Source of the DNA: Rebecca billardiae RCC1528
Lineage: Eukaryota; Protista; Haptophyta
Assembly: GCA_965240325.2 (NCBI GenBank)
Contig: OZ251238.1
Coordinates: forward strand, 682,001 to 746,000
DNA: 64,000 bases
Direction of reading: 5' to 3'
The translations under genes and the position numbers were made by a program. The number at the start of each line of letters is the position of its first letter. Position 1 is the stretch's first letter. This document shows, one piece after another, positions 2,740-57,442 of the stretch. The notes beneath the pieces are model-generated. The model saw nothing but the letters and a program-made list of their open reading frames with translations. It ran no database searches and was not told the DNA's origin.

Positions 2740-2970
2740 CCCGCCGGCGGGCCGGGCTGCGACGTCAGCTACGGCAACAACCTCATCTGCTTCATCGCCC
2801 AGAGCGCACTAGGCGGCGCGCTAACCCGCTCCGCAAGCCCCGTTACCACGGGCCGGCACGCGGCGACGCGTACTACGACCTCATCCTCATCCAGGCGCTC
2901 ACGCGGGCGCCCGGGGGCGACAGCCGCGGCTTGTCCCCGCAGCTGCTCGCCGTCTGCCGTCGCCGCCGCG
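2740..2970 (+). repeat. Dispersed degenerate repeat/gene fragment, copy 1 (copy 2 at about 21940-22410)
   Basis: Shares CCGGCGGGCCGGGCTGCGACGTC, GCTTCATCGCCCAGAGCGCACTAGGCGGCGCGCT and CTACGACCTCAT.CTCATCCAGGCGC with the second copy. Confidence 0.8.
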
Positions 2971-5509: not shown

Positions 5510-7018
5510 ATGCCGAGGAGCATCGTCATCGTGACACTGCTCTGTGCGCTGCACGCGCCGATGAGCGCGCGGGCCAGCGCGCTCGCTCGTCCGCAGCTCG
5601 CGCTGCGTGGGCTGCCACGGCAGTCGCCGCGGCGCCTCTCGCCATCGATCAGCCACGCGCGCCGCGCGGCTCAGCCCGTGGCGAGCAGCGTCGCCGCCGT
5701 CGGCGAGCCGCGCCCGGAGCCAGCGCGTGCGCTCGTGGACGCTGGGCGCACGGTGGGCTCCCTCGGCCTCATCACGGGCATTGACCGCGCCCTCGCTGCC
5801 CTCTTTACCGCCGCTGGCATCGGCTTCCCGCCGACGCTCTTCGGCATGGCGGGCGTCTTTGCGCTGCTGTGTGCTGCGCGCGCACAGTCGGAGTCGCTCG
5901 CAGAGGCGCTGGCGGGCGTGCTGCGCCCCGGCTGCGCGTGGCTCACGCGGTGGATGGCCGTCTTCTTCGCGCCCTCCCTCGTGGCGCTGCCCGCCGTGCT
6001 CGCCGCCATCGGCCCCGCCGAGGCCGCGAAGCTGCCGGTGATCCTTCTCTCCGGGTTCTTTCTGACCCTCTTCAGCACGGCGGCCATGCTGAAGGCGGTG
6101 CCGGCCACGGCGGGGGACGTGAGCGCCGCGGGGCCGCCCGCCGTGCGCACGGGCCGCCCGCTGCTCGTGCCCGCGCTCAGCGCCGCGTGGGTCGCCTCCG
6201 CGGCCGCCGTGTGCGCCCGGCGCGCGGCGGAGGGCGCGCTCGCACCGAGCTGCGCACCGGTGCAGCTGCTGCTGGGGTGCACCACCGTCCTGCTCTTCCG
6301 CGCGGCCGAGCTGCTGCCCGCGCGCGTGCGCGCCGTGGCGCACCCGACGCTGCTCGCCGCGGGCGGCACGCTCGCCTTCGCCACCGCCACCGCGCGCGCC
6401 GTGCTCGCGCCAGCCGCCGCCGGCACCGCCGCACCCGGGGTCGCCCTTCTCGCAGCGTATGCAAGTCGTGCGGCGGGCGCGCTCGGCGGCGGCGGCTTGC
6501 TGGCGTCGATTTTGCCGCTGACGGTGCTCGGCCTCGCGCTGCAGCTGTACGACCGGCGCGCGCAGCTGGCGCAGGAGGCGCCGCGCATCGCGATCTCCGG
6601 CTTCTCCGGCCTGCTCACGGGCATCGTCGCCACCGGGCTGCTGGGGCGCGCCCTCGGCCTGTCGGGCGGCGTCGCGCGCGCGCTGCTGCCGCGCTGCGTG
6701 ACCGCGCCGCTCGCCCACCTCTCTGCGACCGCGCTCGGCGCGAACTCGAACGCGGCGGTGGGCGCGGTGGTGCTCACCGGCCTCCTGGGCGCCAACTTTG
6801 GGCAGCAGCTCCTCCGTGCCGTGGGCGTGACCGACGCGGTCTGCGTCGGCCTGTGCATGGGCACGTCTGCGCACGGGCTCGGCACGGCCGCGCTCAGCGC
6901 GTGGCCTGAGGCTCTCGCCTTCTCCGCAATCGCGCTCGCCATCAACGGCCTGCTCACCGCCTCGCTGCTCGTGAGCCCGATCGGCCAGGCGCTCGCGCGC
7001 ATGCTGCTCGGTGCGTAG
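5510..7018 (+). CDS. LrgB-family (CidA+LrgB fusion) plastid transporter, PLGG1-like
   Basis: Signal peptide plus R/S/A-rich transit-like region; W+A+FFAPSLV.LP (LrgA-like); PRCVTAPLA, TGLLGA, G+.+GTSAHGLGTAAL (LrgB motifs). Confidence 0.85.
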   Translation: MPRSIVIVTLLCALHAPMSARASALARPQLALRGLPRQSPRRLSPSISHARRAAQPVASSVAAVGEPRPEPARALVDAGRTVGSLGLITGIDRALAALFTAAGIGFPPTLFGMAGVFALLCAARAQSESLAEALAGVLRPGCAWLTRWMAVFFAPSLVALPAVLAAIGPAEAAKLPVILLSGFFLTLFSTAAMLKAVPATAGDVSAAGPPAVRTGRPLLVPALSAAWVASAAAVCARRAAEGALAPSCAPVQLLLGCTTVLLFRAAELLPARVRAVAHPTLLAAGGTLAFATATARAVLAPAAAGTAAPGVALLAAYASRAAGALGGGGLLASILPLTVLGLALQLYDRRAQLAQEAPRIAISGFSGLLTGIVATGLLGRALGLSGGVARALLPRCVTAPLAHLSATALGANSNAAVGAVVLTGLLGANFGQQLLRAVGVTDAVCVGLCMGTSAHGLGTAALSAWPEALAFSAIALAINGLLTASLLVSPIGQALARMLLGA

Positions 7019-7325
7019 CTTAGCGCGTACTGCAGCCAGAATACTGCTACTCGTCAACTCGATACTGTGTGAGTGTGTCGTACGGTGTCGTCGTGCCGTA
7101 TCCGTCGAATCCCGCATCGCCCCGCCGCCATCAATCATCATCATGCGCAGCGCGTGCGCGCAATATATTAATGCCGCCGAGTCGTCGTCATCATCGTCAT
7201 CATCGATCACGGGACACGGGCACGGCGGTGGCCATCGGCCCATCACTCGATGGCATGACGATGACGCCGCGCGGTAGTCGTATCCCGGCCGAAAATACTA
7301 AATAGTCCGACTGTGTGAGAGTCTA

Positions 7326-7783
7326 GAGGGGTCAGAGCCCCACTGGGGGGTGCGTGATGGCCCAAAATCCAACTTCCTGTCGTCTTGAGATGAGGCTCTC
7401 AAACTTCGGGATGTCAATATTCGCCTGAAATGAGCTGTGGGCCTGGGGTCACGCTGACAAGAGTTTGCGAAAAAATGTCACATACTGCTATGGAGATATA
7501 CGACCTCAATCTCGACGCGATCTCGGCAACATTAGTAGGGGAGATACACGATCTCCAAGGTGATGTCGCTATTTGCACCAGAATCGCACCGTCTAGATCA
7601 CATTTTGGCAGTCTGAAATTGGCACGTAGGCGGATTCTACACCCTGGAATTAGGCCTTAACGCCTACTAACTAGTTCGTCCAAGTAAATACCCTTATACC
7701 CGTGTGATAGTTCATATGCTAAGAGATTTCGGGAGATTGTGCTGGCACCCGAGCCAGTGTAACGGTCGGAGCTCTGACCCCAC
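7326..7783. mobile_element. MITE-like element, 13-bp TIR, flanked by TA
   Basis: TA-GAGGGGTCAGAGC ... GCTCTGACCCCAC-TA (1 mismatch); 458 bp, lower GC, no credible ORF. Confidence 0.55.
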
Positions 7784-7861
7784 TACACAGTGTGAGACTG
7801 TGATGCTGACGACGATGATGACGCGACGAGCGGAGCCGCCTATATCATCAACAGCAGTGCT

Positions 7862-10800
7862 GGCTCTGGCTCCGGTTGACCCCTGCCAGTCCGTCATAGA
7901 AACCGGGCGTACCGAAAATGATCTTCCCATTCCTGCGGCCGAATGAACGCCCGAAGTGTCCCACAGGGCTCCAAGTAGGGTTACTATGGATGGCCAATAA
8001 GTGCCCAGGGTGTGAAACTTTAACTCAGTTTGTGACTACTTCAGACTCTATTTTTCATAGTTATTTACCCAGTCCGGTGACATATTTCCAATAGCTACGG
8101 GTGCATCCGGATCGCGCTGCGTTCCTGAGCCGCAGCGCCAGAATTACGCGAGATCAGAGAACCTTTCTTTCCTCCCACGCGCGCCATTGGTCGAGACGTC
8201 GCTGAAGGGGGCCGAAAGTTGAGCAGCGGGTAACCTTCTGCTAATGACGTGAGTAAGTCTCGCCGTAGTGGGCCCAAAATTGCAACCTATGACTTTCGCT
8301 TGATCGTCCGATCTCTCGAACATCTGCCCCGAAGCGTCGCTTTTGTGAGGATACACAGCAGCATCTCTCCATCGGTTGATCCTGCAGGCCCTCAACGCTC
8401 CTAGACCCTTCGTCGGCGGACGATCTACGAGTGGCGACAGGCGACGCCTCCCCGGCACACTAGTACGAGGTCGATGGCGAACAAACGCTCGTGCACGGAC
8501 TAGGGGATGTTTGAGTGCGCGTAGCCTCGCTCGATACGACTGCGGGCAGGCGCGGCCGACGCAGTCCCGGCAGCTCCTGTTGTTTCTGCCTGCCACGCCT
8601 GCGCCGTTCATCATCCGTGCCGCGCGTGGCCCGACAACTTGCCAGCGCCGCCGACAAGTTGGTGATCGAAGGGCGCGATTTGAAGGTTCAGCCACCACTC
8701 AGGTGGGCATCCCGGGCCCACTTTGAGTTGTCTTCGATGCTGCCCACCGCGCTGCTCTCGACAGCCTGCGTGCCCTCGTGACAGCGCGCGCGTCCCGGCA
8801 GCTGCACGGTGCGGCATGTCGGCATGGCTTGCTCAGTCGCTCTTCACCTCTGCAGTGCAGAGGATGGGCCACAGCGATTACAGCGATATTGCGGTCGGTG
8901 GCAACGAGCATACTTCTCATGACCGCCGCCGCCGCGTGCCGCAGCTACCCGCCACCGGACGTGCTGCATCACACGTCGATGCTCATGGCTCATTAGACAG
9001 GATCTCACGCTCATCTGTGGGCACCGTTGTACGTGCGGCATGGCAAAGCCCTACTGACTTGGATGTGTGGATGCGTCGGCACGGCGGCAGTCGTCAGTGG
9101 CAGTGCTTGGCTCTGTGTCGCAGACGTGGCGCGGCGCCTGGCGCAGTCACGACGCACTCGTTGACCGGGCCACGCGCTGTCTCGGACACTGGACGGCGCG
9201 GCTCCGAGCAACACTCGCTCGCCGCTGGGCCTGGGCCTGCCGGCCCACAGGGCCTGGGCCGCCTCTGCCCACGCCGAGGCCTGGCCTGGCCTAAGACGGT
9301 AAGACCCCGGGTCACATAGCACGACGGCTCAGTGCCGCTGCCCTCTGGACCAGTGGCGGTGCTGCTCTGCCGGCTCGGGGCGACCCGCTCGCGCCACAGG
9401 CCATGGCAGCGCTCATCGACTCAAACGTGCCGCCGACTCGCGCTCAGCTTCATGGCTGACGGGCTGCGCGAAGCGTCGGCGCTACCGAGAACAGTCGTGC
9501 GCCCTACCCTCTATGCGCCTGCGATCATACGTACTCCGAAGCAGCGCCAGACATGGACGGTGGGCGGTCTCAGCGCCGCGGCGGCACCGCGGGGCGCGCA
9601 GCGCATCGGTGCGCGCCCGGTCATGCATCACCGCGAGCCGCAGAGTCTGAGCCCGAGGAGGCGGAGGACGGCCGGACTCCGGTGGCGCCGCTGGAATGTC
9701 ACATGTGGTGCGGTTCATCGGAGTCAGGATATTCGATCACAGACACGGTCGTCACTACGGTACAGTCGTCATCATGCATTTAGCGCAGCATGCCGCGTAT
9801 AGCGTGACTCACCTTAGTCATTGGGTCCGCGGGCGCGTGCTGACTGCTGCATCATCAGTATTCAGCCGTGCATATAATGGCAATGCTGTCAAGTGTCAGC
9901 ATCAGCTGCGCGCGCACGGACAGACGGTCAACGGAACCTTAGCCGCGTGCCCGTTAGTGAATAGTGCGGACGGTCCGCAGTATCGAGTGATGAGCAGTAG
10001 TCTTATAAAGCCCCGCGCCCGGTACGTTACTACGTACCGAGGCTCCGTAGTAAATGTTGCAGTGACTGGGCCCGGCGGGCGTGCGCCGGCAACACGCCGA
10101 CGGCTGACCCGGCTACGCCTCCAGTCTGAGTCGCAGATTACGGGCGCCCGCGCACTGGCAGCGGTCGAGCCGACTGGATTGTCAGAGTTAGTCAGCGAGT
10201 CGAGCCGCGGGCGCCGGCCAAGGCGGTACGGGCGGTACAGGCATTGCGTGCGCTCGCGTGCAGCCCCCGGAGCCAGCCTGGGGCTCCGAGGGTGTGCTTG
10301 CAGCTGGTGCGTGACCTTACGAGTACTGCACACCGCTTGTTGACACTGCACGCCAAGCCGATCGAAGGCACAACGTGAGGATGTGAACTGGCGGCAGCTT
10401 TCTGCGGATCTGGGCCGTGACCTCTGTAGGCGCGTGGGCACAGAGTGTCCGACGGCGAGGAAAGAGCTCGAGTGGCCGCTATCGGGGCCGAATAGGAAAC
10501 GTGCGACTCGCCGTACATCGCACGCCGACTGCTGGCAGGCTCGCCCCCCCCGCCCGCACCTGCACGATCAGCGTCAGGAGCAATGATTGCGGAGTGCGCA
10601 TTAGCCGCAGAAGAGGACCAGGTGCGCACGCGCGTGTGCAAGCAAAGGGCGACGCCCAATGTGGACCTACGAAGGTGTGCACGCGGCTGACACTGAGCGC
10701 TGATGTCCCTGGACCCGCGCGAGAGCTCCTCAGCCACGCCAATGTCGCAGAGACTCTCTGGCGGCCTGGCCTGGCCGGGCTGCGTTCGAAGCCCTGCCGC

Positions 10801-11250
10801 CCGCCGACGACCGGCGACAAAACACTCTCGTCTTGGCCTCTTGAACCCTCGGTGGCAATCTCTCGCGATCCGCCTCGCCCGCATAGCACGGCTTTGGGCT
10901 CGTTCGCTCATCAATCGAAGACCGCCAACCGATGCGGGTGCGCTGAAAATGCGATTCTTCGTATGTGAACAATTCCGCGGCTTTATTCTCGCGTAATTCT
11001 GGCGCTGGGGCTCAGGAACGCAGCGGCACCCGGACCGTGTTCTGACCAGAGTCTGAAATGGGTAAATACATAGTAAAAATAGAGTCTGAACTATAGAGGA
11101 AGTGCTTGTTGGCCCAATATCGCTCTGAAGTCATCATCTATAGGCATCCATTGAGGTCCTCCTGTGCAGTTTTCACGAGTGACTTCATGAAGGAGCTCAC
11201 AGTGCCCGTCTCTGGCAGGGGTCTGAACCGAACTGTCCGAAGCCAGAGCC
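7862..11250. mobile_element. TIR element family A, copy A1 (non-autonomous), TSD TGCT
   Basis: Left end GGCTCTGGCTCCGGTTGACCCCTGCCAG; right end CTGGCAGGGGTC...CCGAAGCCAGAGCC; TGCT at 7858-7861 and 11251-11254; both ends homologous to the ends of 54443-57809. Confidence 0.85.
8040..11090. repeat. Inner inverted-repeat pair of A1 (8040-8071/11059-11090 and 8115-8153/10987-11025)
   Basis: TTCAGACTCTATTTTT...TATTTACCCA inverted; 39-bp CGCTGCGTTCCTGAGCC(G/C)CAGCGCCAGAATTACGCGAGA inverted with 1 mismatch. Confidence 0.85.
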
Positions 11251-11428
11251 TGCTCAGCAGTCAACTAATTACAACGGCTCACTCGCTCAAGATCGACCCA
11301 ATAAGACAGACAAGCAGAGTAGTGCTGCTGCATGCTGTGCTGCATGCTCAGCAGCAGTCATATATCGTCGGCGTCACGTACTACGTAGGTCTACGCTCGT
11401 GTGAACACCCAGTCCGACCTGCACGAGT

Positions 11429-12405
11429 TCACAGCTGCACGAACGCGGCGGCGAGTGAGCTGCGCCCCTCGCGCCGCACGAGCAGCGCCTCGATCAGCCT
11501 CGGGCCGTCCGCGCCGGCGGCGAACGAGGCGCGGAGCGCATCGGCCAGCGCCTCGACGGTGCTGACGCGCTCGGCCTGCACGCCGCAGCCCTGCGCTAGG
11601 TGCAGCTGCACGCGCGCAGGGGGCGGGGCGCGCGGGGTGCACCGTGAGCGCGCGCTCGACAGCTGCCGCGCCCTTCGCTGCGTCCGCGGCAAACCCCGTG
11701 GGCTCGCACGGCGGGCGGGGGCACTGCCCCGGCGGCTGGCACGTACCCAGTCCAGCGGCGGGTGGGAGAGCGACATCAGACCGTCCACCCGCCGCGCCTG
11801 CTCCGCCACGTCCGCGCGCGCGCTCGGCTCGGCCGCGCGCGCGTGCGCCGGACTCTGCATCCGCATCTCCAGCTGCAGGATGTTGTACGCGTCGTTCGCG
11901 CACACCACGACGGTGAGGTTGTGCAGCTGCGCGCGCGCCATCGTCCACAACGCCTGCGCGTCGGGCGGGGGCGCGCGGGGGCTCGGCTGCGGCCGGCCGA
12001 CACGCGGCTGTGCCGAGCGGGCGCGCGGGGCGGGAAGCCGGACTACGGACCGACACAGCGACACGCGCGAGGCTGTCTGTCCCCACTGGGGGCGGCCCAA
12101 AGCTCGGCGCGGCGCATCGCTCGCGCGCACCTGCACCGAGTACATCCCCGAGCCGTCCGCCTGCAGGGCGAGCACGTGGCGCTCGGGGCAGGCGACGGCC
12201 GCGCCGAGCGCCATCGGCAGCCCGCTGCCGATCGCACCGCCGGTGAGCGCAAGGTGCGAAAACGCATGCGCGCAGCCCTCCGACTCGGCCCAGTACTGCG
12301 TGCCCGAGGTGAGCGACTCGTCCACGACGATGGCGCCCGCCGGCTGCAGCGCGGCGACCGTTGCGCACAGCTTGGCCGCGCTCAGCGGCCCGCCTGCCGG
12401 CACCA

Positions 12406-15516: not shown

Positions 15517-16203
15517 GCACACCATCTGAGCTGCTAGCAGGCTCGGCTCAGGCGCTCCGAGCCGTGCCACTGCATTCAGCCGGTCGACAAGCAGTCAAGC
15601 TACCAGCTATAAGATTTGGTGAGACGCATGCAGTGCTCTGTGCTGAATGGCCTGCAACTTGACCCCTCCGTTTAGCTGGGCTACGAACAAATATTCTGGA
15701 TGTCTTGAGAATTCTCATCGCGCGTTCTATTATTGTAAAGATTGGCGCTGCACGTGATACAGCAGCAGCGGATAATACGTACAAGTCATGCAATTCGAGA
15801 TATATCCATCATTGATTACGACCGGTGCGCACACTTATCTCTCTGAGCTAGTACATAGTGCAAACGCTGTTGCGACCCGTCCTGCGTCCATATACTCGTA
15901 CAGGAGTACTTATTACTGTGTGCACGTTAAAACATAGTAAACTGTATACTCCTGTTCATCCAATATCTGTTTCAGACTCATAGCCTATTCCCGAGCTGAC
16001 GGTTGTAATCTCGTCGATTACGAGAGCACGAGTGCGTGTCGAGTACTGAGTAGCTACTGTGTGTAGTCTTGGATATGGCGTCAATCAGTAATCACGCGCC
16101 TTATAACCAAGTGTGCACGTTATAAATCATCGTAAATATAACTACTGTATACTTCCGACGTACTGATATCTAGACGATATATGTACATCAAGTATAAGCT
16201 CGC

Positions 16204-16279: not shown

Positions 16280-16949
16280 GTTACTGTTACGGCCTAGCCA
16301 AGCTGTATCTGTGCCGCAGTGCGCCGCCGGACCCGTAGCACTACGACTTGCTGTTGCGTACGAATCCAAACGATGTGGGAAGCCTGCCTCATTCGTGACA
16401 TGTCTACCCCGCCGACGCTCATCGCAAGGTGTGTGCGGCAGCTCGAGGCGCTCTTCCAACGCGATGCCAGCGACGTGCACGCAGCCATCTGGTGCGGACA
16501 CGCTCTACCCACGCCGCCCTGCGCCGGTACCTGCTGCAGCAGTGCATGCGGTTCCATCTGGCGCCTTCACCGAGGATGTCGTCTGCTCATCATCGACGAC
16601 GCATCATCGACTCGCTGCGCACCTGACTAACTGGTCCTGCCAGCCGCACCTTAGTAGCTGATCCTCAGTCGTGCTCTCTTGCGGGCTTGTCAGTGACGAC
16701 GACTGTCGGTACGTCGTCGTAGTCGTAACGTATAGTACGACGACGGGTACTGCTACGTACTCAGATGAAAAACTGTGCCCTGGCGGGCGGGGGTGTCGGC
16801 GGGCCGTGCCAGTGCTCACAGTGCTGTCGCAATGTTTCCTCTGCGGCGGGTTCGCGTCTTTTCACATTCGCTCGTGGCCGTGGGTGACGGACAGTCGGAC
16901 CAGTGACACCTGAAGTTCTCACCAGGCGAGTGTACACGTCCGTGCGCTA

Positions 16950-17560
16950 ATCAGCGAGGCCCACACCCACGAGGAAATGTGCAGCACGCGGGGCGGGGCG
17001 GGTTGCCCGTTGCTCCGCGCGAGCGCGGGTACGCGGTGTATGTGCCGCCTGCCAGCCGAGAGCGGTCGTCGCGAGGATGCTTGCCGATGTCCGCTCCGGG
17101 CATGATGGGCTCGGCGCAGGTCGCGTTGACATCGTACACGGCCGCCAGGCTGAGTACGAGCGCGTTGACGTTCACGCGGTCGTCGCTCTTCGCCTCTTTG
17201 ACAGGTCTGGCGCCCGCGTGTTTGGCGGCACGAGGAGCTGTTGGTTGTGCGCGCGCGCGCACAGCGACAGCGTGTGCCACTCGCGATCGAGAGTGGGCAC
17301 GAGCTGCTCGAGCAAACACACGAATCGCAGCGCATCCGTCACCGACGTCCCTCGTCCCGCAGCGCCTGCGCCATGCTCGACGTTTCATCTCTCTGCGGAT
17401 GGCATCACGGGCTTGTCTGCGTCGCGCTGCGGCGAGGGTCGCCAACTCGCGAAGACACGGTTGCTGCCACGGCGACAGACCCGGGAGGTGCGTCCGCTGC
17501 GCGTCGTACGCCGTTGGCGCTGCGTTTCCGTCGCATTGGTCACCGTCGACGCCATGCAGG
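16950..17560 (-). pseudogene. Frameshifted gene relic, unknown family
   Basis: Protein-like segments in different frames: LPGLSPWQQPCLRELATL / MAQALRDEG / VTDALRFVCLLEQLVPTLDREWHTLSLC / VNVNALVLSLAAVYDVNA. Confidence 0.35.
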
Positions 17561-18261
17561 CCGGACGTGGGCTTCGGCTGAGGGACCGCGAGCGAAGCAG
17601 AGTCCGGCGCGCGGATTCCGGCGATCGAGTTCCCCGGAAGGCCGCGCCAAATCTTGCGTCGCGTGCGATGGCGCTCCCGCCCGCGAGACACCTCGTCATG
17701 AGGGCCTTTCCGCACCGAGCCCGACGCGCGGCGGTGGATCGCGCGAGGCGGCTGTCGTGCGCAGCGCTTGATGCTATGACCAGTGCGAGCGCTCGACGTG
17801 CAAGTCGGGCGAGGACCGCCCCAGGTCGCACGATCGTGTCGACGCGCCGAGCGTACCTCCAAACGCGTCGACTTTGGCCCCCGTTCGACCTGCACGCGAG
17901 ACGACGAGGGCAGCAATCGCGAATCGGGCGAAAATGTCCCTCGGGAGTCCTCGCGCGATGTCCGCGCCGGCGTTGGATCTGGCGCGCGCCGCCCACGCGC
18001 TCCGCGCCGTGACGCACTCGCTTTTCGGCCGAGCGTCCCCAGTGGGAGCTGCGAGGGCGCCCGGTAGTGAGCGAGGCGATTTCTTTTCTTGGCGAGGCGA
18101 TTTTCTTTTCCGCGCCACCATTTCTTTCGGTTTTCCTACCGGGTTTACGGCCCGCCCGGGCCGCCCCATTCCGGGAAGGATACGAATTATTCGCGTTATC
18201 GAGTGATCGAGTCGCGCGGGGCTCGAGCTCGTCTTTTCCACCCGCGCCCACCCGGGCTACG

Positions 18262-20495
18262 CCGCCGGGCGACGCGCGCGCCAGCCGGTGCGCTGCGCAC
18301 ACGCTGGCCGGCATGATCGATGTGAGGAGCCGCATGTGTGATCACGCGGGCTGCACCACGCATGCTTCGTTCGGCATGGCGGGCGGCGCGTGCGCCAGCC
18401 GCTGCGCTACGCACAAGCTGGCCGGCATGGTCAACCTGAAGCACCGTAAGTGCGATCATGCGGGTTGCACCAAGGCGCCTTCATTCGGCATGCCGGGCGA
18501 GAAGCGCGCCAGCCGGTGCGCCACGCACAAGCTGGCCGGCATGGTCGACGTGGTGAACCGCAAGTGTGACCACGCGGACTGCACCAAGGCGCCTTCGTTC
18601 GGCATGCCGGGCGACTCGCGCGCCAGCCGGTGCGCCACTCACAAGCTGGCCGGCATGGTGAACGTGGTGAGCCCCAACTGTGATCACGCGGACTGCACCA
18701 AGTGGCCTTTGTTCGGCATGCCGGGCGACGCGCGCGCCAGCCGGTGCGCCACGCACAAGCTGGCCGGCATGGTCGACTTGAAGAACCGCAAGTGCGATCA
18801 TGCGGGTTGCACCAAGCATCCTTCTTACGGCATGCCGGGCGAGAAGCGCGCCAGCCGGTGCGCCACTCACAAGCTGGCCGGCATGGTGAACGTTAGGAGC
18901 CCCAACTGTGATCACGCGGACTGCACCAAGCAGCCTGCGTTCGGCATGCCGGGCGACTCGCGCGCCAGCCGGTGCGCCACTCACAAGCTGGCCGGCATGG
19001 TGAACGTGGTGAGCCCCAAGTGTGATCACGCGGACTGCACCAAGGGGCCTTCGTTCGGCATGCCGGGCGACTCGCGCGCCAGCCGGTGCGCCACTCACAA
19101 GCTGGCCGGCATGGTCGACGTGAGGAGCCCCAAGTGTGATCACGCGGACTGCACCAAGGGGCCTTCGTTCGGCATGCCGGGCGACGCGCGCGCCAGCCGA
19201 TGCGCCATGCACAAGCTGGCAGGCATGGTCGGCATGAGGGGCTCCAACTGTGATCACGCGGACTGCACCAAGGGGCCTTCGTACGGCATGCCGGGCGACT
19301 CGCGCGCCAGCCGGTGCGCCACTCACAAGCTGGCCGGCATGGTGAACGTGGTGAGCCCCAAGTGTGATCACGCGGACTGCACCAAGGGGCCTTCGTACGG
19401 CATGCCGGGCGACGCGCGCGCCAGCCGCTGCGCTACGCACAAGCTGGCAGGCATGGTCAACGTGGTGAGCCCCCAGTGCGATCACGCTGGCTGCACCAAG
19501 GGGCCTTCGTTTGGCATGCCGGGCGAGAAGCGCGCCAGCCGGTGCGCCACGCACAAGCTGGCCGGCATGGTCGACGTGGTGAGCCGCAAGTGTGATCACG
19601 CGGACTGCACCAAGGCGCCTTCGTTCGGCATGCCGGGCAACTCGCGCCCCAGCCGGTGCGCTACGCACAAGCTGGTCGGCATGGTCGCCATGAATAACCG
19701 CACGTGTGATCACGCTGGCTGCACCGCACGGTCTTACTTTGGCATGCCGGCTGACGAGCGCGCCAGCCGGTGCGCTGAGCACAAGCTGGCCGGCATGGTC
19801 AACGTGAGTAGCCCCAGGTGTGATCACGCGGGCTGCACCACACGGCCTTCGTGCGGCATGCCGGGCGACGCGCGTGCCAGCCGGTGCGCTACGCACAAGC
19901 TGGCCGGCATGATCGACCTGAGGCACCCCAAGTGTGATCACGCAGGCTGCACCAAGGTGCCTTCATTCGGCATGCCGGGCGAGAAGCGCTCCAGCCGGTG
20001 CGCTTCGCACAGGCTGCCCGACATGGTCAACGTGAGGAGCCGGCTGTGTGAGCACGCGGGCTGCACCAAGTGGCCTTCGTTCGGCATGCCGGGCGACTCG
20101 CGCGCCAGCCGGTGCGCCACTCACAAGCTGGCCGGCATGGTGAACGTGGTGAGCCCCAACTGTGATCACGCGGACTGCACCAAGCAGCCTGCGTTCGGCA
20201 TGCCGGGCGACGCGCGCGCCAGCCGGTGCGCCACGCACAAGCTGGCCGGCATGGTAAACGTGGCGAAGCTCACGACGTGTCATCACGATGGTTGCACCAA
20301 GAGGCCTGTGTTCGGCATGGCGGGCGACGCGCGCGGCAGCCGGTGCGCTATGCACAAGCTGGCCGGCATGGTCGACGTGGTGAGCCGCAAGTGTGATCAC
20401 GCCGGCTGCACCAAGGGGCCTGTGTTCGGCATGCCGGGCGAGAAGCGCGCCAGCCGGTGCGCCACGCACAAGCTGGCCGGCATGGTGAACGTGGG
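18262..20495 (+). repeat. 114-bp coding tandem array (19 full units plus a 5' partial unit)
   Basis: Recurrent GCCAGCCGGTGCGCCAC.CACAAGCTGGCCGGCATGGT every 114 bp; one unit is 117 bp. Confidence 0.95.
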
Positions 20496-21183
20496 CAGCG
20501 TCCCCAAGCGCAGGCTGGAGCATGGCACCGAAGGCCAGGGCACGCGCGCCGCGAAGCGATGGCGCACTCACAGCAGCCACATCGCCGCCGTTTCGGACGT
20601 CCCGCAGCTGCTATCGCCACCGCCGCCACTGGTGGCAGTTGGCACGCCACTGGTGGCATTCGGCATCCCACTGGTCGCAGTCAGCACAGTCCGCTGGCGC
20701 TCGCCATATGGCACGATCCATCCGGTTGGCGACGGGGTGGTCAATGGTTATGGTGGTGCCTGGGCCCTGGACGAGCAGCATCTGTGTGGCAATGCAGGTG
20801 ACGCAACTCGGGCTGCGCCTGGCTGGGCTGGCATCTACGACCAGGGACTACCAGCAGGCATCAACACCACCGCTGCGCCAGCACTAGCATTATCATCGAT
20901 GGCGGCTGGAGCAGGTGCAGGATGGCAGCAAACGCCACAGGTCGCGCCTGCGGTGACGGCGAGCAGGGCCCTGGTCGACAATGCTGGCGGCTCAGAAGCG
21001 CGTCACACTCACAGCTCCGGGGTCTTGAGACCGCTGCTCGAGAGATGCAACGGTGCAGGTTACCTCCGAACAGTACCACCACACTGCGACGACACAGGTC
21101 ACGCTGCTGAATCTGACGACGACCATTGGACAGTCATGTCTTTGGATCTGCCGTCGGATGATGATGACGACTCGTATTATTAA
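18313..21183 (+). CDS. EsV-1-7-type Cys/His tandem-repeat protein (19 x 38 aa) with candidate NLS and acidic tail
   Basis: Unit C-x4-C-TKxPSFGMPG-x6-C-x2-HKLAGMV(D/N)V resembles the EsV-1-7 motif; ORF open from 18067, first ATG 18313; no introns needed. Confidence 0.85.
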   Translation: MIDVRSRMCDHAGCTTHASFGMAGGACASRCATHKLAGMVNLKHRKCDHAGCTKAPSFGMPGEKRASRCATHKLAGMVDVVNRKCDHADCTKAPSFGMPGDSRASRCATHKLAGMVNVVSPNCDHADCTKWPLFGMPGDARASRCATHKLAGMVDLKNRKCDHAGCTKHPSYGMPGEKRASRCATHKLAGMVNVRSPNCDHADCTKQPAFGMPGDSRASRCATHKLAGMVNVVSPKCDHADCTKGPSFGMPGDSRASRCATHKLAGMVDVRSPKCDHADCTKGPSFGMPGDARASRCAMHKLAGMVGMRGSNCDHADCTKGPSYGMPGDSRASRCATHKLAGMVNVVSPKCDHADCTKGPSYGMPGDARASRCATHKLAGMVNVVSPQCDHAGCTKGPSFGMPGEKRASRCATHKLAGMVDVVSRKCDHADCTKAPSFGMPGNSRPSRCATHKLVGMVAMNNRTCDHAGCTARSYFGMPADERASRCAEHKLAGMVNVSSPRCDHAGCTTRPSCGMPGDARASRCATHKLAGMIDLRHPKCDHAGCTKVPSFGMPGEKRSSRCASHRLPDMVNVRSRLCEHAGCTKWPSFGMPGDSRASRCATHKLAGMVNVVSPNCDHADCTKQPAFGMPGDARASRCATHKLAGMVNVAKLTTCHHDGCTKRPVFGMAGDARGSRCAMHKLAGMVDVVSRKCDHAGCTKGPVFGMPGEKRASRCATHKLAGMVNVGSVPKRRLEHGTEGQGTRAAKRWRTHSSHIAAVSDVPQLLSPPPPLVAVGTPLVAFGIPLVAVSTVRWRSPYGTIHPVGDGVVNGYGGAWALDEQHLCGNAGDATRAAPGWAGIYDQGLPAGINTTAAPALALSSMAAGAGAGWQQTPQVAPAVTASRALVDNAGGSEARHTHSSGVLRPLLERCNGAGYLRTVPPHCDDTGHAAESDDDHWTVMSLDLPSDDDDDSYY

Positions 21184-21939: not shown

Positions 21940-22410
21940 CCGCCCGCCGCCGGCGGGCCGGGCTGCGACGTCGACTACATGACCTCATCCGCTTCATCGC
22001 CCAGAGCGCACTAGGCGGCGCGCTCACTCTCCAAGCCCCTCTTCTGCAGCTGCGCGCCGCTTGGCCGCCGGCGCCGCGGCGCAGCGTACTAACTACGACC
22101 TCATTCCTCATCCAGGCGCCCACGTGGGCGCACGCAGGGGCGACAGCCGCGCCTACCGCCTGCCGGCGCAGCTGCTCGCAGCTAGGTCGGCGGGCGGCGA
22201 CATCGACTACGACCTCACCCTCATCCAAGTGCTCCGGAAGGCGCTCGGCCGCGGCGGCATCTGCCGTCGTCGCCGCCGCGCGCCCCAGGCCGAGGCGGTG
22301 CTCCATCCCGGCCCCGGCTCCCGTAGGGGGGCAGGGCTGCGGGTGGCGCACTGCCTGACCTGGTCGGAAGACGCGGACGAATTCTATGTAGTGTCCGCTG
22401 CACTCTGAGC
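21940..22410 (+). pseudogene. Degenerate gene fragment with internal YDLxLIQ repeats, copy 2
   Basis: Homologous to 2740-2970 with indels; peptide GGDIDYDLTLIQVLRKALGRGG...HCLTWSEDADEFYVV. Confidence 0.55.
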
Positions 22411-22496: not shown

Positions 22497-22602
22497 TCTC
22501 TCTCTCTCTCTAGATCTAGATCTAGATCTAGATCTAGATCTAGATCTACTAGATCTAGAGATCTAGATCTAGATCTACTAGATCTAGAGATCTAGATCTA
22601 GA
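22497..22602. repeat. (TC)n followed by self-complementary (TAGATC)n array
   Basis: Direct reading; about 15 hexamer units with a duplicated variant block. Confidence 0.95.
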
Positions 22603-23719
22603 TATACATATATATACTGACAATGACTCATCTTGGCCCGCGGTGCAGGGCGGAGCGCGCAGCGTGGAGCCCGCACCAGCGGGCCCGAACCACAATTCAA
22701 AAAGATCTTTGATCAAAGAAAAAAGGGACGGGGGACGATTTTCAGGGCTGGAGGAGACCGAGTTTCGAATTTTGAGACTCCCTTACAGGTGCATCCTCGT
22801 CGAAAAAGGGCGCGGCCGCCGTCTTGAATAGTGAACAGAGGAATCAACGAAACCCACGCCCAAGTGTGCCAGGGTGAGTAATTACGGGTGGACTCAGTCG
22901 TTCATGTGTGACCATAGTAAATAAATATGGGCCTCGCCGCCGCAAGAACGACTCTCACCAACTCCAATACTGCGAGACATTGAAAAATACCCGCAGCTAT
23001 TCGTCGCCAGCCCATTTCATAGTCACTGATCAACGCACCGAGCTGGCGAGCCTCAAAACTGCCGTCGTCGCAAGGCAGCAGGTTTTGAGCCCGTTTCGGA
23101 GGTGGCGAGGGCGCCGCGCGACTCTCGCCTCCAAGCAAGGGCGGGCGATGGGCAGGTGCGCGCGGCCAGTGGCGCCTGGAGCGCGCGTCTGCGGCGGGTC
23201 CCGACGGCCGTCGACATCGTGTTCGTGCCCCGCTCACTAGTCACTCCGCGCGCCCCTGCCGCCCTGTCGATGCCTGCGCGGCCGGGGCCGCGCGTCAGCG
23301 CAGCCGCCGCCCTTTGTTCGGGCTCTCGCAAGCTCGGGGGCAGCGGCGCCTGACTGATGCCGGACTGATCGATCTCTGAGTCTCCGACTTCACCACACGC
23401 CCCCCTTGTCATGCCTCTCCGCCAGGGTCTCCCAGAACTCTTCTTCAGAGCAGGCGCGCCAACCCGAATCCATCGATCTGTTCCGTGCCGGCACTCTCGG
23501 CCCGCGCCGGCAAGTCTGTCTGCAGCGCTGGACGGGCGGACCTAGGAGGACGAGCTGCGGCGCGGACGACGGTGGTGCGCGACGTCCCCAGAGCTGGCCG
23601 TGCCTCTGCGACGCGTGCCGAGCCTGACCGAGGTGTGTCACCCCGTGACCCCGTGCAGTGCAACCGCGGCGTGCGGAGTGAATAACAATCACCGGTGCCC
23701 TCGCACCTCGGCACACACA

Positions 23720-24364: not shown

Positions 24365-25740
24365 GGAAGAGGAACTTAGCGTGCTGCCTTGATGAACACG
24401 GGCCTGCGGCGCGTCGCTACTCGCTAGCTGCGATGGTAGACCTACATCAATGTACTACTCAGCAATACATCAATACTCAATTAGTGAGTCAATAGCTGCC
24501 TAGACCAGTTGCACGCGTGAGCGCCGAAAAAACGACTCTTTGGCAGTGATAGTCACAGTCGCCCCCGGCGGGCATGCCGCTGCCGCCGGTGGCGGCGGCA
24601 GCGGGAGCGTGGCAGCGATCTACCACATTCCGCGTTACACGCTGCGCCGCGCGCGCCAGGTGCCAGGTGCCCCCGGTCCGCCGCGCGGAAGGCAGCGCGG
24701 TCGGCGAGCGCAGAGGTGAGAAGGAGGCGCGCATCGTGAGAGCTTCAGCAGCTTGCCCGCGCTTCACGTAGGGTTGCGTGCGCACGCGGTCTGTACCCGT
24801 ACACGCGATCGTGGCGTGAGCCACTCCAGGTCCTGCCTGCGCCTCGCGGGCCGTGCCGCCGGCGCCTCATCTCCTGAATCCTCGTCCACGTTCATGAGGA
24901 TAGCACTGAGCACGCGCATCGGTTCGCGCGCTCGCGGCCGATGGCGCGGGCAGCTCCTCGCGTCGAGGGCGTTTGGTTGGAGGTGCATCCACGAATGTTG
25001 GCACGGTGCTGCCCGATCCTAACGCTGAGGCGGCGCGCTTCCCGAAGGCAGCAGCATTGGCTGATGCCTTCTACCTTTGGGCAAGAAGGTTGCGCAGGGT
25101 TGCCCTGCGCAACCGCGCGCTGACGCTGCCGGCGCCGACGGGCGCGCGCGCGGCGTGGCTTCTGGTGGGCACCTGCCCTGGGTTTTTCCGTTCGTTCTCA
25201 GCGACGGTGGGGCCGATTGACATGCGGATTGGATTGGTGCATTGCGAATCGGCTTCGCAATGCACCATTGCGCTCGGATCGGCGCGGAAGTCTAGCGGAA
25301 AAACCGAGATTTCACGCATGACGGATACTCACCCGTGCTGTTGAGAGCTACCAGCAAGATTTGGTGAGATGCAGTGGTGCTTGAACATTATATTTTAGTG
25401 CGCTGACCCCCGAGATTCCAGAGACCAATTCTATGATTTAAAGACACAGGCACGAGGGCGCAGCTCTCCTGATTCGTCTGTCGAAGTACTGAATGGAGTT
25501 AATGGAGGATGTCGGAGCGCGTTGGCCGCGGGTGAGGGAGTCGTCGTAACCGATGCTGATCACACGGTCACTGAGGTAGTAGGCGCCCGGGGATGCCGCT
25601 GTTTTGCAGTCGTCGTCGGCCTTGGTCATCATGTAGTTGCCCGTGTCGTCGTCGTCCGAGGCTGTTCAAGTTGATGCCGTAGTGCAGGTAGTGGATGTGG
25701 TCGCCCGGGCCGGTGTGCGCGGCCTAGTGGCCTTGCCGAG

Positions 25741-25866
25741 TTGAGGGAGTAGTCGCCCTTGCCGTTGAGGAAGTCGTCGTCCTTGCCGTTGAGGAAGTCG
25801 TCGCCCTGGCCGCAGAGGAAGTCGTCGCCCTTGCCGTTGAGGAAGTCGTCGTCCTGGCCGCTGAGG
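25741..25866 (-). repeat. 24-bp tandem repeat x5 in element X (also about 55896-56021)
   Basis: Unit AAGG(A/G)CGACGACTTCCTCAACGGC on the minus strand. Confidence 0.9.
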
Positions 25867-25919
25867 GTGCCTGCGCTGCCCAACCGGGCGCGTCTGGCGC
25901 GCCAGCGCCGCGCGCGGCT

Positions 25920-27023
25920 CTACGCCAGCGACTGCGGCGCGGCGGCAGCCAGGTCACGGGGGGGGTCGCCGAGGGACGCGGTGCGAGCCTGCTTGGCCGG
26001 CTTGGCGTCGCTCCCGCCAGCGGAGGAGGGCCCATCCTCCTCCGCCGGCGTGGACGGCTCGGTCGCCGCGCGCTTGCCGGCTGCCGCGGCGCCGGGGGGC
26101 AGGACCAGGCGGTAGTTGGACTCCCCGAGCGCCGGCCTGGCCTGTTGCACCTCGGGCCCGTCCGACGGCGCGGCCGCGGTTGGTGGCTGGGGTGGCGGGA
26201 TGGCATCGTCCGAACCCTCCCCCTCGGGCTCCTCCGCCTCCGGGCCGGCGGGGTCCGCCGCCTGTTGGTCGGCCGGCTGAGGAGCAGGGCGGCGCGCAGC
26301 GGCGGGCGGCGCGGGCGGCACAGGCGGCGCGGGCGGCACGCCCCACAGGTTGTGTGGGACGCGGGCGGCGCCGGCGATGCGGCGGCTCGGCTTGAGCGGC
26401 GCGAAGAAGATGGGGTGCTCGGGGTCGATGGGCATGAAACGCAGGCGGAGGAAGATCAGGTTCACACCGCCGGAGTAGATGTTGGTCTCGACGTGCTCAC
26501 CGTTGGTCACGTACTTGTTGATGTCGGGCACGATCTGCTCGTAGAGGGCCCTGTGAAACTGCACGAGCGTCATCGTGGGGCTAACCGGGAGCGTGAGGGA
26601 CACGTCCTTCGCCTGGGTTGCGAGGTCGGCCGCCGACAGCGCGAGCATCTCCTGCGTGAGCTCCGTGGTGCACGCCGTGAGAATGTTCGGCATGCACAGG
26701 CTGGTGGCCAGGCGGCGGCAGATGGTCATGTTCTCGAGCACCGAGCCGGTGAAGGAGAAAACGTGCTTATTGCCTTTGGGGTCCTGGGTGAGTCCTGAGA
26801 GCAGTCGCCCGCCTTGCGAGTTGGGCGCCACGTCGCTCAGGCAGCGCGCGCTCAGCTTGATCATCGTCGTGCACATCTGCTGGCCCGCATCCCGCCTGGC
26901 GGTGGGGGTGCTCGGCCGTTCCACCTGCAGCCCGCGCTCGAAGTTGTTGGAAGAGGGGAAGAAGCTCAAGGCGCTCCTGCTGTTGAGACGGTCGCGGAAA
27001 AAGCCGTGCTGGTAAGGGGGCAT
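25920..27023 (-). CDS. Element X ORF, 367 aa, unknown (possibly ORF1/Gag-like)
   Basis: ATG 27023 (MPPYQHGFF); globular-looking N-terminal ~220 aa followed by a P/A/E-rich tail; intact in both copies. Confidence 0.65.
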   Translation of the reverse strand: MPPYQHGFFRDRLNSRSALSFFPSSNNFERGLQVERPSTPTARRDAGQQMCTTMIKLSARCLSDVAPNSQGGRLLSGLTQDPKGNKHVFSFTGSVLENMTICRRLATSLCMPNILTACTTELTQEMLALSAADLATQAKDVSLTLPVSPTMTLVQFHRALYEQIVPDINKYVTNGEHVETNIYSGGVNLIFLRLRFMPIDPEHPIFFAPLKPSRRIAGAARVPHNLWGVPPAPPVPPAPPAAARRPAPQPADQQAADPAGPEAEEPEGEGSDDAIPPPQPPTAAAPSDGPEVQQARPALGESNYRLVLPPGAAAAGKRAATEPSTPAEEDGPSSAGGSDAKPAKQARTASLGDPPRDLAAAAPQSLA

Positions 27024-27739
27024 GGTGGCCGGTGTGGCGGGCGCGGGGCTGCGGAGGGCCGGGGGGCGGGTGCGGAAGCACTGCGGTGCGAGCGAGGTCG
27101 GTGCTGGTGCCAAAGGCATTTCGGCGCGCGGGGTTGAAATCAAATTTCAAAACCCAGGTCCGGAGTGGCCCCGCCGGTCCCCCGGACCACGGCGGCCCGT
27201 CGTGCGTTTCGGGGGGAGAGGGGTTTGTCGCGAAACGGGCAGGATGGGGAAAAGGGGGGGGGGGGGGGGGGGGCTCGCGGCCGCCGCGGGGAGGCCGGGA
27301 CGGGCGCGGTCTCCACCTGAGGGCCGGGCGCTGCTCAGGAAGGAGGGCGGCCCACACTCCGCGTGTCGCTCCCCAGTGCCTCCGCACAGGCACACCGCAG
27401 GTGTTCGCCGTCGTGTCGGGATGAGCATGCGCTTGGCGTCCGCACCCGGGGCCAGTCCTTTCATGGTCAGCAAGCAGGCGGGGGGGGGGGCGTGCGTGTG
27501 CAAGCGCGGGTGGATATGTCGTGTCTGCGATATGCGGAGTGTTGGATGCGGGTTGCGCCGGTGCCCCAGGGCACCGGTGAGTGTGTCGCCGCCCGCGGCG
27601 CGGCAATTATTTTTTGAATCGATCGACGGGTGGACGAAAATAGACCAGCCGGGGCGGTCACAAAGTTATTATAATATTACAGTTTACTAAGAATAAGAGA
27701 CGCACGCAGCTCAGGCGTGCGATTCCAGTCGGGGGCGGC

Positions 27740-29460
27740 ATTTGGCGATGCCTGCCCCCTCTGCGATCATGCTCCACTGCTACATCCAGCGCCAGATACT
27801 GAGCACCACCTCTTCTCTGACTTCTGAGTGCCCTGAGGTCGATGCCTACCGCATGGCTGCTGCCAGAAGCGTATCGCATGTAATTGAGCCCTTCATGCAG
27901 GGACAGGCTGCAGCATGGAACTTGGCACGTCACGTGTGCTCTGGGGCTGCCCTCATGGACAGGGTGCCCAGCACACTGAAGACCACTGTGGCCGTGTGGG
28001 GGGCAACGTGCATCTCGGCAGGACCATGCACGTGGCCTTACTGAAGGCAGGGCTAGGCTGCATCATGCAGGCCCGCAAGGACGTGGACTCCCAGCTGTCA
28101 AAGGCAGGACGTCTCCTTCGGCTTCGACATGCCAGGGAGCTTCGGCCGCCGCCTGGGCACGGCCAGGGGGGGCAGCCCCCACCCCCACAGGCACAGGCAG
28201 GCCCAGGAGGGGCGATTGCCATGAATAATCAAGTTGCAAGGACCACCTGTCATCCAGCAGCAACCCCCTGCCCAGGCTGGCCAGGGCTGGCAGGCAGGCG
28301 CGGGGCAGGCCAACCTGCACCAGCCCATAGCGCGCGGTCACCACGTGCGCCCCCAGCTACTCTTGCGGGCGTGGCCTCTTCAGCGTGCTCGCCCCCTCCC
28401 TATGGTGATTGCGTGGCCACTGCAGCCTGCCACACCTCTTGTGGCATGGCCGCTCCAATATGCCACCCAGCTGGCTCGCAGCGATGTGGGTCCACCGGAC
28501 AATGTGTTGACACATGGGGGCCCTGAGATGGAGGCAGACCCGGCTGCTGGCAGTCACACTGGTAACGGAGCTCAAAGCGGCCTTACGCAGTCAGACACTG
28601 GACAGCAGGCCACACAGACACCTGCTGGCTCTGCCAGGCCACTGGCAGCCCCCAGGCGCAGGCTGCCTCCTCCTAGTCAAGCTCAGCAAGACAGACCCCC
28701 GACCCAACGACACTGCCCACCCCGCCAGGCAAATGTGCCGCAGCAGAGCACGCTACCCCCTGCAAAGCGCAGCAGGAAGAGGCGAGCAAACGACACCTCC
28801 CCAGGCGTATTAGCCATCGCCACCACTTTGCTTGCTTCCTACAGCGGCCCACGCCCTGACTTGATGCCCGATGTAGCACACATGTCTGACATGACCCCCT
28901 TTGCCTCCATAGCTGCACGAGTGAAATACAGGCGCCTCGCTGCCAGGGCCAGTGCGGCCCAGACCCCTGCCCAGCTACTGGGCTCGATGACAGTCCCCTC
29001 AGTCCCCTTCCCCGCGCAGGGATCGGCTAGTGGCTGGCCCTCTGCCCCACACTGCCAGGGCACCCTAGGGGGTGCCCCTTCTGCCGACTCGGCTCAAACT
29101 CGATGATCTTGAATTGCAAGGCCGTGCACTGCTTGTACCTGGGACCACCCCACAGTGTTGGGCTTGTATGCTGTAGTTGGCAATGGCATACCCCCGCCCC
29201 CTCTGGCTAGGCGGGCTGTCCACAGTGGAGTGGTGTCAAGACACTACGGGTGTCTCGGTCAGTGGTTTGAAGTTGGGTGAGGGTGGTGGTTGGTTGGGGG
29301 CTGGCCAGGGTAGGGCTGGAGGCTTCGGCCGCCAGCCTGATCACCCGGAGCCCGTTATAAAGGGGAATTTTACTAGGCGAGATTACTGTGTATGGGGGTA
29401 TGGAGCGCTCGCTGTGGAACTTGAGCCGGGTGGAACTTGACTTTGAGCCCGCATTTCCCA
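27740..29460 (+). pseudogene. CpG-depleted decayed coding-like/TE-like segment
   Basis: GC-rich but few CpG with many TG/CA; broken ORFs 27742-28044 and 28234-29106 (Q/P-rich, PAKRSRKRR). Confidence 0.45.

Positions 29461-57408: not shown

Positions 57409-57442
<34 letters not shown>

What the first reader, a model, noticed from the sequence alone, without database searches (positions are those of the whole stretch)
18262..21183. TALE-like modular zinc-repeat protein: 19 near-identical EsV-1-7 repeats with a hypervariable codon, plus NLS and acidic tail
Seen: the 38-aa units have an almost fixed scaffold (C-x4-C...C-x2-H). The residue two after the second Cys+Thr (CTKxP) reads H,A,A,W,H,Q,G,G,G,G,G,A,R,R,V,W,Q,R,G. 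Its codons differ by multiple bases (GCG, TGG, CAT, CAG, GGG, GTG, AGG, CGG) between largely conserved AAG and CCT flanks. A second variable patch is the four residues before each first Cys (KHRK, VNRK, VSPN, RSPK, RGSN, NNRT, RSRL). After the array come PKRR-x11-KRWR (bipartite NLS-like) and an acidic/aromatic end (DDDHWTVMSLDLPSDDDDDSYY). Known: EsV-1-7 repeats occur in algal giant viruses and algal hosts (e.g. Ectocarpus IMM), and their ligand is not established as far as I know. Inference: repeat array + NLS + acidic tail mirrors TAL effectors, so this may be a programmable, one-repeat-per-unit nucleic-acid reader, perhaps for anti-virus/anti-TE recognition or transcriptional control.
Basis: partly seen in the sequence, partly recalled or inferred. 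Interest (0 to 1): 0.9.

Follow-up and report, generated by a model that had tools for sequence, protein, structure and literature searches.

The report
Algal zinc-repeat protein with DNA code
A microalgal gene encodes 19 near-identical small cysteine/histidine repeats (likely zinc-binding) that differ mainly at a few fixed positions, and giant-virus relatives suggest each repeat likely reads three DNA letters by a partly decodable code, so the protein would be a reprogrammable DNA reader, though binding, target and expression are untested.

Summary
Observation confirmed: an intact 956-aa ORF (18313-21183) holds 19 EsV-1-7 repeats (PF19114), a basic cluster and an acidic end, in a likely Pavlovales haptophyte. 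The variable codon X has pN 0.61 against pS 0.18 in the scaffold columns.

The TALE analogy is only partly right. In 40 homogeneous viral arrays three columns vary (linker L-3, X, X+2), as in PRDM9-type zinc-finger arrays. 114 of 156 homologues carry a nuclease-like motif.

Scanning such arrays against neighbouring viral genes gave a candidate code at an assumed 3 bp per repeat, read antiparallel: X R=G, Q=A, I=C; L-3 N=A, H=G, D=C, S=T (z 8.7; shuffled maximum 5.9). Top sites fall on conserved motifs. Held-out support is modest (77 arrays; beat 40 of 40 shuffles; rank 10 of 576), and two earlier candidate codes failed.

In the window, 17 of 19 L-3 but only 5 of 19 X residues decode, and no target was found. 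The array-NLS-tail layout is common in algal EsV-1-7 proteins. This scan earlier noted a three-letter code on other (viral) DNA. Seven literature searches found no such code in print.

The parts
18313..21183 (+). Single-exon ORF, 956 aa: EsV-1-7 array + basic cluster + low-complexity tail, no nuclease motif
   Evidence: tail has no Pfam hit and no usable Atlas hit
18313..20493 (+). 19 EsV-1-7 (PF19114) repeats, C-x4-C-x16-C-x2-H, period 38 aa (one gap of 39); coding minisatellite, mean 17 of 114 nt different between units, shuffled by recombination
   Evidence: 93 of 210 informative site pairs incompatible; AF2 model of repeats 2-7 pLDDT 93
18361..20418 (+). X codons (second Cys +3; first 18361-18363, last 20416-20418): H,A,A,W,H,Q,G,G,G,G,G,A,R,R,V,W,Q,R,G; inferred to read the middle base of each triplet
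   Evidence: code from viral relatives
18328..20385 (+). L-3 codons (first Cys -3; first 18328-18330, last 20383-20385): S x12, N x3, H x2, G, L; inferred to read the 3' base of each triplet
18367..20424 (+). X+2 codons (second Cys +5): third variable column of the family, mostly Ser here; no base preference recovered at 22 confident viral sites
18264..18312 (+). Degenerate half repeat upstream of the first ATG; relic of a longer array or part of an unseen upstream exon
20503..20565 (+). Two basic clusters, PKRR-x13-KRWR, resembling a bipartite NLS (pattern only, untested)
20566..21093 (+). Ala/Gly/Pro-rich low-complexity tail; GC3 of the whole tail 0.64 against 0.87 in the array and 0.89-0.93 in two neighbouring genes
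21094..21180 (+). Acidic end: 10 Asp/Glu and 5 W/F/Y/L in 29 aa, no Lys/Arg (activation-domain-like composition, untested)
16754..18050 (.). Probable high-copy dispersed repeat ending about 260 bp upstream of the ATG; context, probably not part of the gene
   Evidence: summed contig depth 30-237 against about 4-5 over the tail in one related run; summed depth is a weak copy measure

Best explanation
The gene encodes a likely nuclear, likely sequence-specific DNA-binding protein whose 19 EsV-1-7 repeats would each read about 3 bp like a zinc-finger array, with specificity predicted to come from the variable loop residue X and the linker residue L-3, and a tail that likely regulates transcription rather than cutting DNA. 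Shown: the array, its tandem shuffling, purifying selection on the scaffold with excess amino-acid change at X and the linker, and the same variable columns across viral relatives that mostly carry a nuclease-like tail and often lie beside core genes. Inferred from statistics on those relatives: the array runs antiparallel to the strand read; X R=G, Q=A, I=C; L-3 N=A, H=G, D=C, S=T; X+2 is weak. In many viral cases X and L-3 fall on the first two bases of codons, so the array would follow a conserved protein motif and ignore the wobble base. Inferred by transfer to the alga: a site of up to 57 bp with T at every third base for 12 of 19 repeats, retargeted by unequal crossing-over and point changes as in PRDM9. 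The target is unknown.
For: Selection pattern in the window and in 38 of 40 homogeneous viral arrays, with three high-entropy columns L-3 1.56, X 1.42, X+2 1.62 bits against at most 1.04 elsewhere. Nuclease-like motif in 114 of 156 homologues with 3 or more repeats. Neighbours include major capsid protein, RPB2, topoisomerase II, helicase and D5 primase. Exhaustive pair scan (576 maps x 19 settings, 107 arrays): best z 8.7, shuffled maximum 5.9 in that setting and 7.0 in any. With the third position added: 8.7 against -7.2 +/- 3.7 in 40 shuffles; 8 of the top 12 sites share one of six strand/frame strata and lie on P-loop, topoisomerase and capsid motifs. Split halves: worse-half rank median 17 of 576. 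Held-out 77 arrays: the three coding-strand classes beat 39, 40 and 37 of 40 shuffles, the other four classes did not; pooled z 2.6, rank 10 of 576, three controls ranked 109, 222 and 133. A capsid-start site outside the discovery windows ranks 1 of 11920 (L140), 1 of 5960 (L257), 2 of 6224 (L136). R=G, Q=A, N=A, H=G, D=C match C2H2 finger preferences (recalled, no call). 17 of 19 window L-3 residues use the code alphabet.
Against: The code was reached after many failed routes, and two earlier candidates with equally attractive hits failed on held-out data. Two rival pair solutions scored z 7.7 and 7.2. Held-out support is modest: the three-position code over all strata gave 1.4 against -1.6 +/- 2.7; mean per-array p was 0.50 with 6 of 77 under 0.05; nine other maps outranked the code, and that pooling was chosen after on the same arrays. 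Discovery leans on few arrays (L266 5.1, L045 2.3). Only 5 of 18 capsid-adjacent arrays put their best nearby site at the gene start. Period 3 was assumed for the final code; other periods were not tested with it. Only 5 of 19 window X residues decode (G, A, H, W, V are unassigned). Nuclease-free proteins use the L-3 alphabet less (56% against 75%). No target in the window (p 0.23) or in the viral loci (inside the null). No structure match, so DNA contact is not shown structurally.
Confidence: 0.55

Rival explanations
1. The array binds DNA specifically, but not by the code derived here: another step size or mapping, or context-dependent reading with no simple code, including the first reader's one repeat to one base.
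For: Modest held-out statistics and rival pair solutions; failed de novo sampling; two earlier scan notes on such arrays found no code.
Against: The chosen code passed split-half, held-out strand-class and capsid-start checks that the two rejected codes did not. X-only one-base tests at period 1 gave at most z 1.6 on 9 arrays.
Confidence: 0.2
2. The gene is a functionless or decaying relic of a virus-derived array, amplified as a minisatellite beside a repeat element; X varies through a mutation hotspot in a G run and gene conversion.
For: Half repeat upstream of the ATG and an adjacent high-copy repeat; X codons are one-step neighbours of GGG inside a G run; five G-type repeats in a row; heavy recombination.
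Against: The frame is open over 19 repeats plus tail; all 76 Cys/His ligand codons are kept; scaffold pN is half of pS. The same columns vary in AT-rich viral arrays that use other residues. Similar array-plus-tail proteins occur in other algae.
Confidence: 0.12
3. The repeats bind RNA or proteins (a scaffold or pathogen-protein sensor), and the variable residues tune that surface.
For: No solved DNA-binding relative; the weak, non-significant Foldseek rows include LIM and PHD domains as well as GATA; no binding assay for the family in the passages read.
Against: Fusion to a nuclease-like domain in most homologues and to a transposase; statistical link between residues and neighbouring DNA.
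Confidence: 0.13

Closest known systems
EsV-1-7 domain proteins (Pfam PF19114 / IPR043822), including Ectocarpus IMMEDIATE UPRIGHT
   Same: Same repeat (19 Pfam hits); nuclease-free array with an unrelated low-complexity region; family expanded in brown algae and proposed as a novel zinc finger and developmental regulator (10.1101/2024.02.19.579948 and 10.64898/2026.04.27.720984, passages).
   Different: Likely haptophyte host; 19 near-identical repeats, against five in IMM and at most 14 in the homologues; the passages read give no ligand or code.
Giant-virus EsV-1-7 arrays fused to a nuclease-like domain (label PD-(D/E)XK / Vsr-like recalled and taken from earlier scan notes)
   Same: Same scaffold and the same variable columns; the closest viral-type scaffolds are 52-56% identical (P0124, P0132, P0130).
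   Different: No nuclease motif in the window protein; X uses G, A, H, W, V where the nucleases use R 27%, Q 24%, I 17%.
PRDM9 and other C2H2 zinc-finger arrays
   Same: Coding minisatellite under concerted evolution whose diversity concentrates at three DNA-contact codons per unit (PMC3890296, passages); about 3 bp per unit, antiparallel, similar residue-base pairs (recalled).
   Different: Different fold: C-x4-C-x16-C-x2-H with loops and short strands, no recognition helix in the model; no KRAB or SET domain; no PDB match.
TAL effectors
   Same: Near-identical tandem repeats with variable positions, followed by basic clusters and an acidic end.
   Different: TALE units are helical hairpins with an adjacent di-residue reading one base (one repeat per base: PMC5499867 abstract start; fold recalled). 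Here the units are Cys/His modules, the variable residues are 11-13 apart, and the best model is 3 bp per repeat. No TALE Pfam hit.

Membership tests
EsV-1-7 domain proteins (PF19114) | Match to PF19114 above the curated cut-off | tested here: met
   838.9 bits against cut-off 25, 19 stretches
EsV-1-7 domain proteins (PF19114) | Conserved C-x4-C...C-x2-H in each repeat | tested here: met
   all four columns invariant in 19 of 19 repeats
EsV-1-7 domain proteins (PF19114) | Zinc binding | not testable with these tools
   inferred from the ligand pattern only
TAL effectors | TALE repeat sequence and helical hairpin fold | tested here: not met
   only PF19114 is hit; model has no helices of 4 or more residues
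TAL effectors | One repeat reads one base through an adjacent di-residue | tested here: inconclusive
   three separated variable columns; X-only period-1 test null on 9 arrays; final code not run at period 1
TAL effectors | Working NLS and acidic activation domain | not testable with these tools
   patterns present, function untested
C2H2 zinc-finger arrays (PRDM9-like) | C2H2 beta-beta-alpha finger | tested here: not met
   no zf-C2H2 Pfam hit; no structural match
C2H2 zinc-finger arrays (PRDM9-like) | Works like it: diversity concentrated at three codons per unit | tested here: met
C2H2 zinc-finger arrays (PRDM9-like) | Works like it: triplet, antiparallel residue-base code | tested here: inconclusive
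   supported in viral relatives at modest strength; no target for the window array
EsV-1-7 nucleases of giant viruses | C-terminal nuclease-like motif | tested here: not met
   motif absent from the window tail

The most novel reading that the evidence does not exclude
EsV-1-7 repeats are a third natural class of programmable DNA-reading repeat beside C2H2 fingers and TALEs, with a simple triplet code. Giant viruses use it to aim nucleases at conserved codons of core genes. This haptophyte has domesticated it as a fast-retargeting 19-repeat nuclear regulator, a PRDM9/KRAB-finger-like system in an alga, possibly aimed at T-periodic foreign or microsatellite DNA. The code would let the hundreds of brown-algal EsV-1-7 genes, IMM included, be assigned targets.
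Probability: 0.4. Interest if true: 0.92.

Novelty: new variant of a known kind. Interest (0 to 1): 0.72.

Why it matters
EsV-1-7 genes form the largest orthogroup in brown algae and include a known developmental regulator, yet the papers read give the domain no ligand. A residue-to-base code makes that question directly testable with a few binding assays. It would also offer a compact 38-aa scaffold for engineered DNA binding. The window protein is a natural test case: one scaffold, many variants, and residues (G, A, H, W, V) that would complete the code.

Tried and rejected
Code searches that failed:
- X-only mappings at periods 1-6 on 9 capsid-adjacent arrays, at periods 2-4 on 142 arrays and on 94 arrays: nothing reproducible.
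- One fixed site in the capsid gene for 12 related arrays: G 31.9 against null maxima 28-42.
- De novo and seeded Gibbs sampling and soft-posterior scans: no clear mode. The unnormalised runs (59, 61) were artefacts of GC-rich patches.
- Candidate R=C, Q=G, I=T on the parallel strand, with striking hits on helicase motifs: failed on 150 held-out arrays (3.2 against 2.8 +/- 1.7) and on 57 and 66 arrays in conserved windows.
- Candidate R=G, Q=T, I=C, with hits on topoisomerase, RPB2 and capsid motifs: rank 100 of 144 on 21 held-out arrays.
- An idea tested as a fixed rule scored -6.3; that scan was confounded by GC content.
- X+2 specificity: suggested, not seen at 22 confident sites.

Target search for the window array: best window hit p 0.23, sub-arrays p 0.29-0.89, viral loci 14.3 within null 12.5-16.0.

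Structure: no PDB sequence hit, no Foldseek hit at E 0.001, no VIA hit at Z 2. No model of a two-repeat unit was obtained.

Other blanks: no RNA holder listed; no whole genome held, so paralogues could not be counted; no usable Atlas hit for the tail; the IMM paper is not held; the first viral scan with a single protein found no locus; the TRP survey PMC11417379 had no hit for EsV, cysteine, virus or alga in its main text. Supplements were not read; the EsV-1-7 tables of the brown-algal preprints could bear on repeat counts and distribution.
Full report
What is there. The window is GC-rich eukaryotic DNA with ordinary genes. A neighbouring UbiA gene has its best named hit in Diacronema lutheri at 68%, so the host is likely a Pavlovales haptophyte. 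The finding is one ORF, 18313-21183, of 956 aa, with 19 EsV-1-7 repeats, then PKRR-x13-KRWR, an Ala/Gly/Pro-rich stretch and an acidic end. A degenerate half repeat lies just before the ATG. The first repeat starts as in the closest homologue P0145 (63%), which also has a basic cluster and a low-complexity tail, so the ATG is a plausible start. A probable high-copy repeat ends about 260 bp upstream. The same run holds short contigs 80-90% alike over the last repeats and the tail start, which hints at paralogues; it shares only 7% of the words and was not shown to be the same strain.

Is the variation real? X is the most variable of 38 columns. Its pN is 0.61 against pS 0.18 and pN 0.09 in the scaffold, and the linker has pN 0.41. 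The repeats recombine freely (93 of 210 informative pairs incompatible), so tree-based counts are inflated. The X codons differ by single steps around GGG, 10 of 11 edges non-synonymous; this weakens the multi-base argument and leaves room for a local hotspot. The family argues for selection. Of 100 arrays from viral and metagenome contigs with 6 or more canonical repeats, 40 have scaffolds at least 65% identical. In these, three columns stand out (L-3 1.56, X 1.42, X+2 1.62 bits; next 1.04), and pN at X exceeds pS elsewhere in 38 of 40 (20 of 27 and 21 of 33 in the more diverged groups). X ranks first in only 2 of the 40 and in the top three in 22. The pattern resembles PRDM9 (PMC3890296, passages) more than a TALE.

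What relatives say. Of the 240 proteins listed by two searches, 156 have 3 or more canonical repeats and 114 of these carry a nuclease-like motif by my own regex. Pfam and a PDB profile search do not name that domain; the label is recalled and taken from earlier scan notes. Among the neighbours scanned for 79 viral loci are capsid protein, RPB2, topoisomerase II, helicases and D5 primase, the setting of free-standing homing endonucleases (own knowledge). An Ectocarpus transposase also carries the domain (PMC12477816, one passage). The nuclease-free homologues include brown and green algal proteins with an array, a basic cluster and a disordered region; 16 of 42 have a basic cluster early in the tail. 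AlphaFold models six repeats with pLDDT 93 as loop-rich modules with short strands, with no match among solved structures.

Search for a code. An earlier scan note claimed three letters per repeat without details. I gathered 834 loci and asked whether repeat order predicts neighbouring DNA, using shuffled repeat order as the null. Many routes failed, and two attractive X-only codes were rejected on held-out arrays. After one search pointed to L-3, an exhaustive scan of 576 pair maps in 19 settings on 107 arrays, limited to conserved windows of neighbouring genes, gave one best solution at z 8.7 (7.6 with Ser included), against shuffled maxima of 5.9 in that setting and 7.0 overall; rivals reached 7.7 and 7.2. 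On the complementary strand it reads X R=G, Q=A, I=C and L-3 N=A, H=G, D=C, S=T, antiparallel, close to C2H2 preferences (recalled). Eight of the top 12 sites fall in one of six strand/frame strata, where X and L-3 meet the first two bases of codons. They lie in P-loop motifs (L266, L028, L158, L008), a topoisomerase motif (L045) and the capsid C-terminus (L244); three of these share a neighbour family, and motif names are recalled.

How far it holds. In 200 split halves the code's worse rank had median 17 of 576. On 77 arrays outside the discovery set, the three-position code over all positions was not significant. The pair code beat 39, 40 and 37 of 40 shuffles in the three coding-strand classes and showed no excess in the other four, with mean per-array p 0.50 in the class named beforehand. 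Pooled afterwards, it beat 40 of 40 shuffles and ranked 10 of 576, while three controls ranked 109-222. Among 18 capsid-adjacent arrays, five placed their best nearby site at the gene start: L140, L257 and L136 (one family; site outside the discovery windows; ranks 1, 1, 2 among 6,000-12,000) and L336 and L314 (ranks 2, 3); the other 13 did not. I put the code at about 60% likely to be right in its main rules. X+2 showed no preference at 22 confident sites.

Back to the window. Seventeen of 19 L-3 residues are S, N or H, and all four one-base edges among its codons are non-synonymous. Only five X residues are R or Q. The partial prediction is a 57-bp site with T at every third base in 12 repeats. 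It matched nothing significantly in the window (best p 0.23, on a TCTAGA microsatellite at 22568) or in about 5.5 Mb of viral loci. The Ser-Gly-Ser repeat type that fills repeats 7, 8, 10 and 11 recurs in runs in other nuclease-free homologues (P0027, P0038, P0043, P0126, P0170, P0228), which would suit a trinucleotide repeat. Brown-algal promoters carry a CAGCAG/CTGCTG motif (10.64898/2026.04.27.720984, passages). The link is a guess, since Gly at X is unassigned.

Verdict. The protein is a member of the EsV-1-7 family, not a TALE or a C2H2 array, but it most likely works like a PRDM9-type triplet reader. The family and the algal layout are known (passages of 10.1101/2024.02.19.579948, 10.64898/2026.04.27.720984 and PMC12993054). 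Searches (listings only) found no paper giving DNA binding or a code for it; the IMM paper was not available and supplements were not read. This scan had noted viral array-nuclease fusions several times and a three-letter code once, on other DNA. What this window adds is an unusually long, homogeneous, nuclease-free eukaryotic array and an explicit code derived here from locus data.

Noticed in passing
window 25423-27551 and 55578-57720: A 2.1-kb element present twice at 99.3% identity, with a 408-aa minus-strand frame that has no Pfam hit; probably a recently mobile element.
   Followed up: partly
window 8106-8153 and 10987-11034: Inverted repeats of 48 nt at 92% flank about 2.9 kb, like a DNA transposon; four ORFs inside have no Pfam hit.
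   Followed up: partly
window 16754-18050: Probable high-copy dispersed repeat directly upstream of the gene, with no Pfam hit in its long frames.
   Followed up: partly
window 22509-22603: A TCTAGA microsatellite 1.3 kb downstream of the gene is the best window match to the partial predicted site, but not significant (p 0.23).
   Followed up: partly
window 28225-29106: A 293-aa low-complexity frame with a basic cluster and a short internal repeat similar in style to the gene's tail; no Pfam hit.
   Followed up: partly
window 2741-2950 and 21947-22179; 15600-15670 and 25345-25415: Dispersed diverged repeats: the first pair is 75% alike; the second was seen by eye.
   Followed up: no
L266, L028, L158 (neighbouring P-loop ATPase genes): Three viral arrays are predicted to read the P-loop codons of the same ATPase family; good first targets for a binding test.
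   Followed up: partly
L027, L033, L047, L049, L347 arrays: Some viral repeats carry one or more extra residues in the X loop; my parser skipped them as gaps. They may read differently.
   Followed up: no
L305, L083, L094, L131, L349, L106, L355, L143, L329, L134: One nuclease lineage sits 17-38 bp before a capsid gene, with conserved first repeats but wholly reshuffled later repeats, which suggests rapid retargeting at a fixed locus.
   Followed up: partly
P0185: An EsV-1-7 array protein is named from the fungus Funneliformis geosporum.
   Followed up: no
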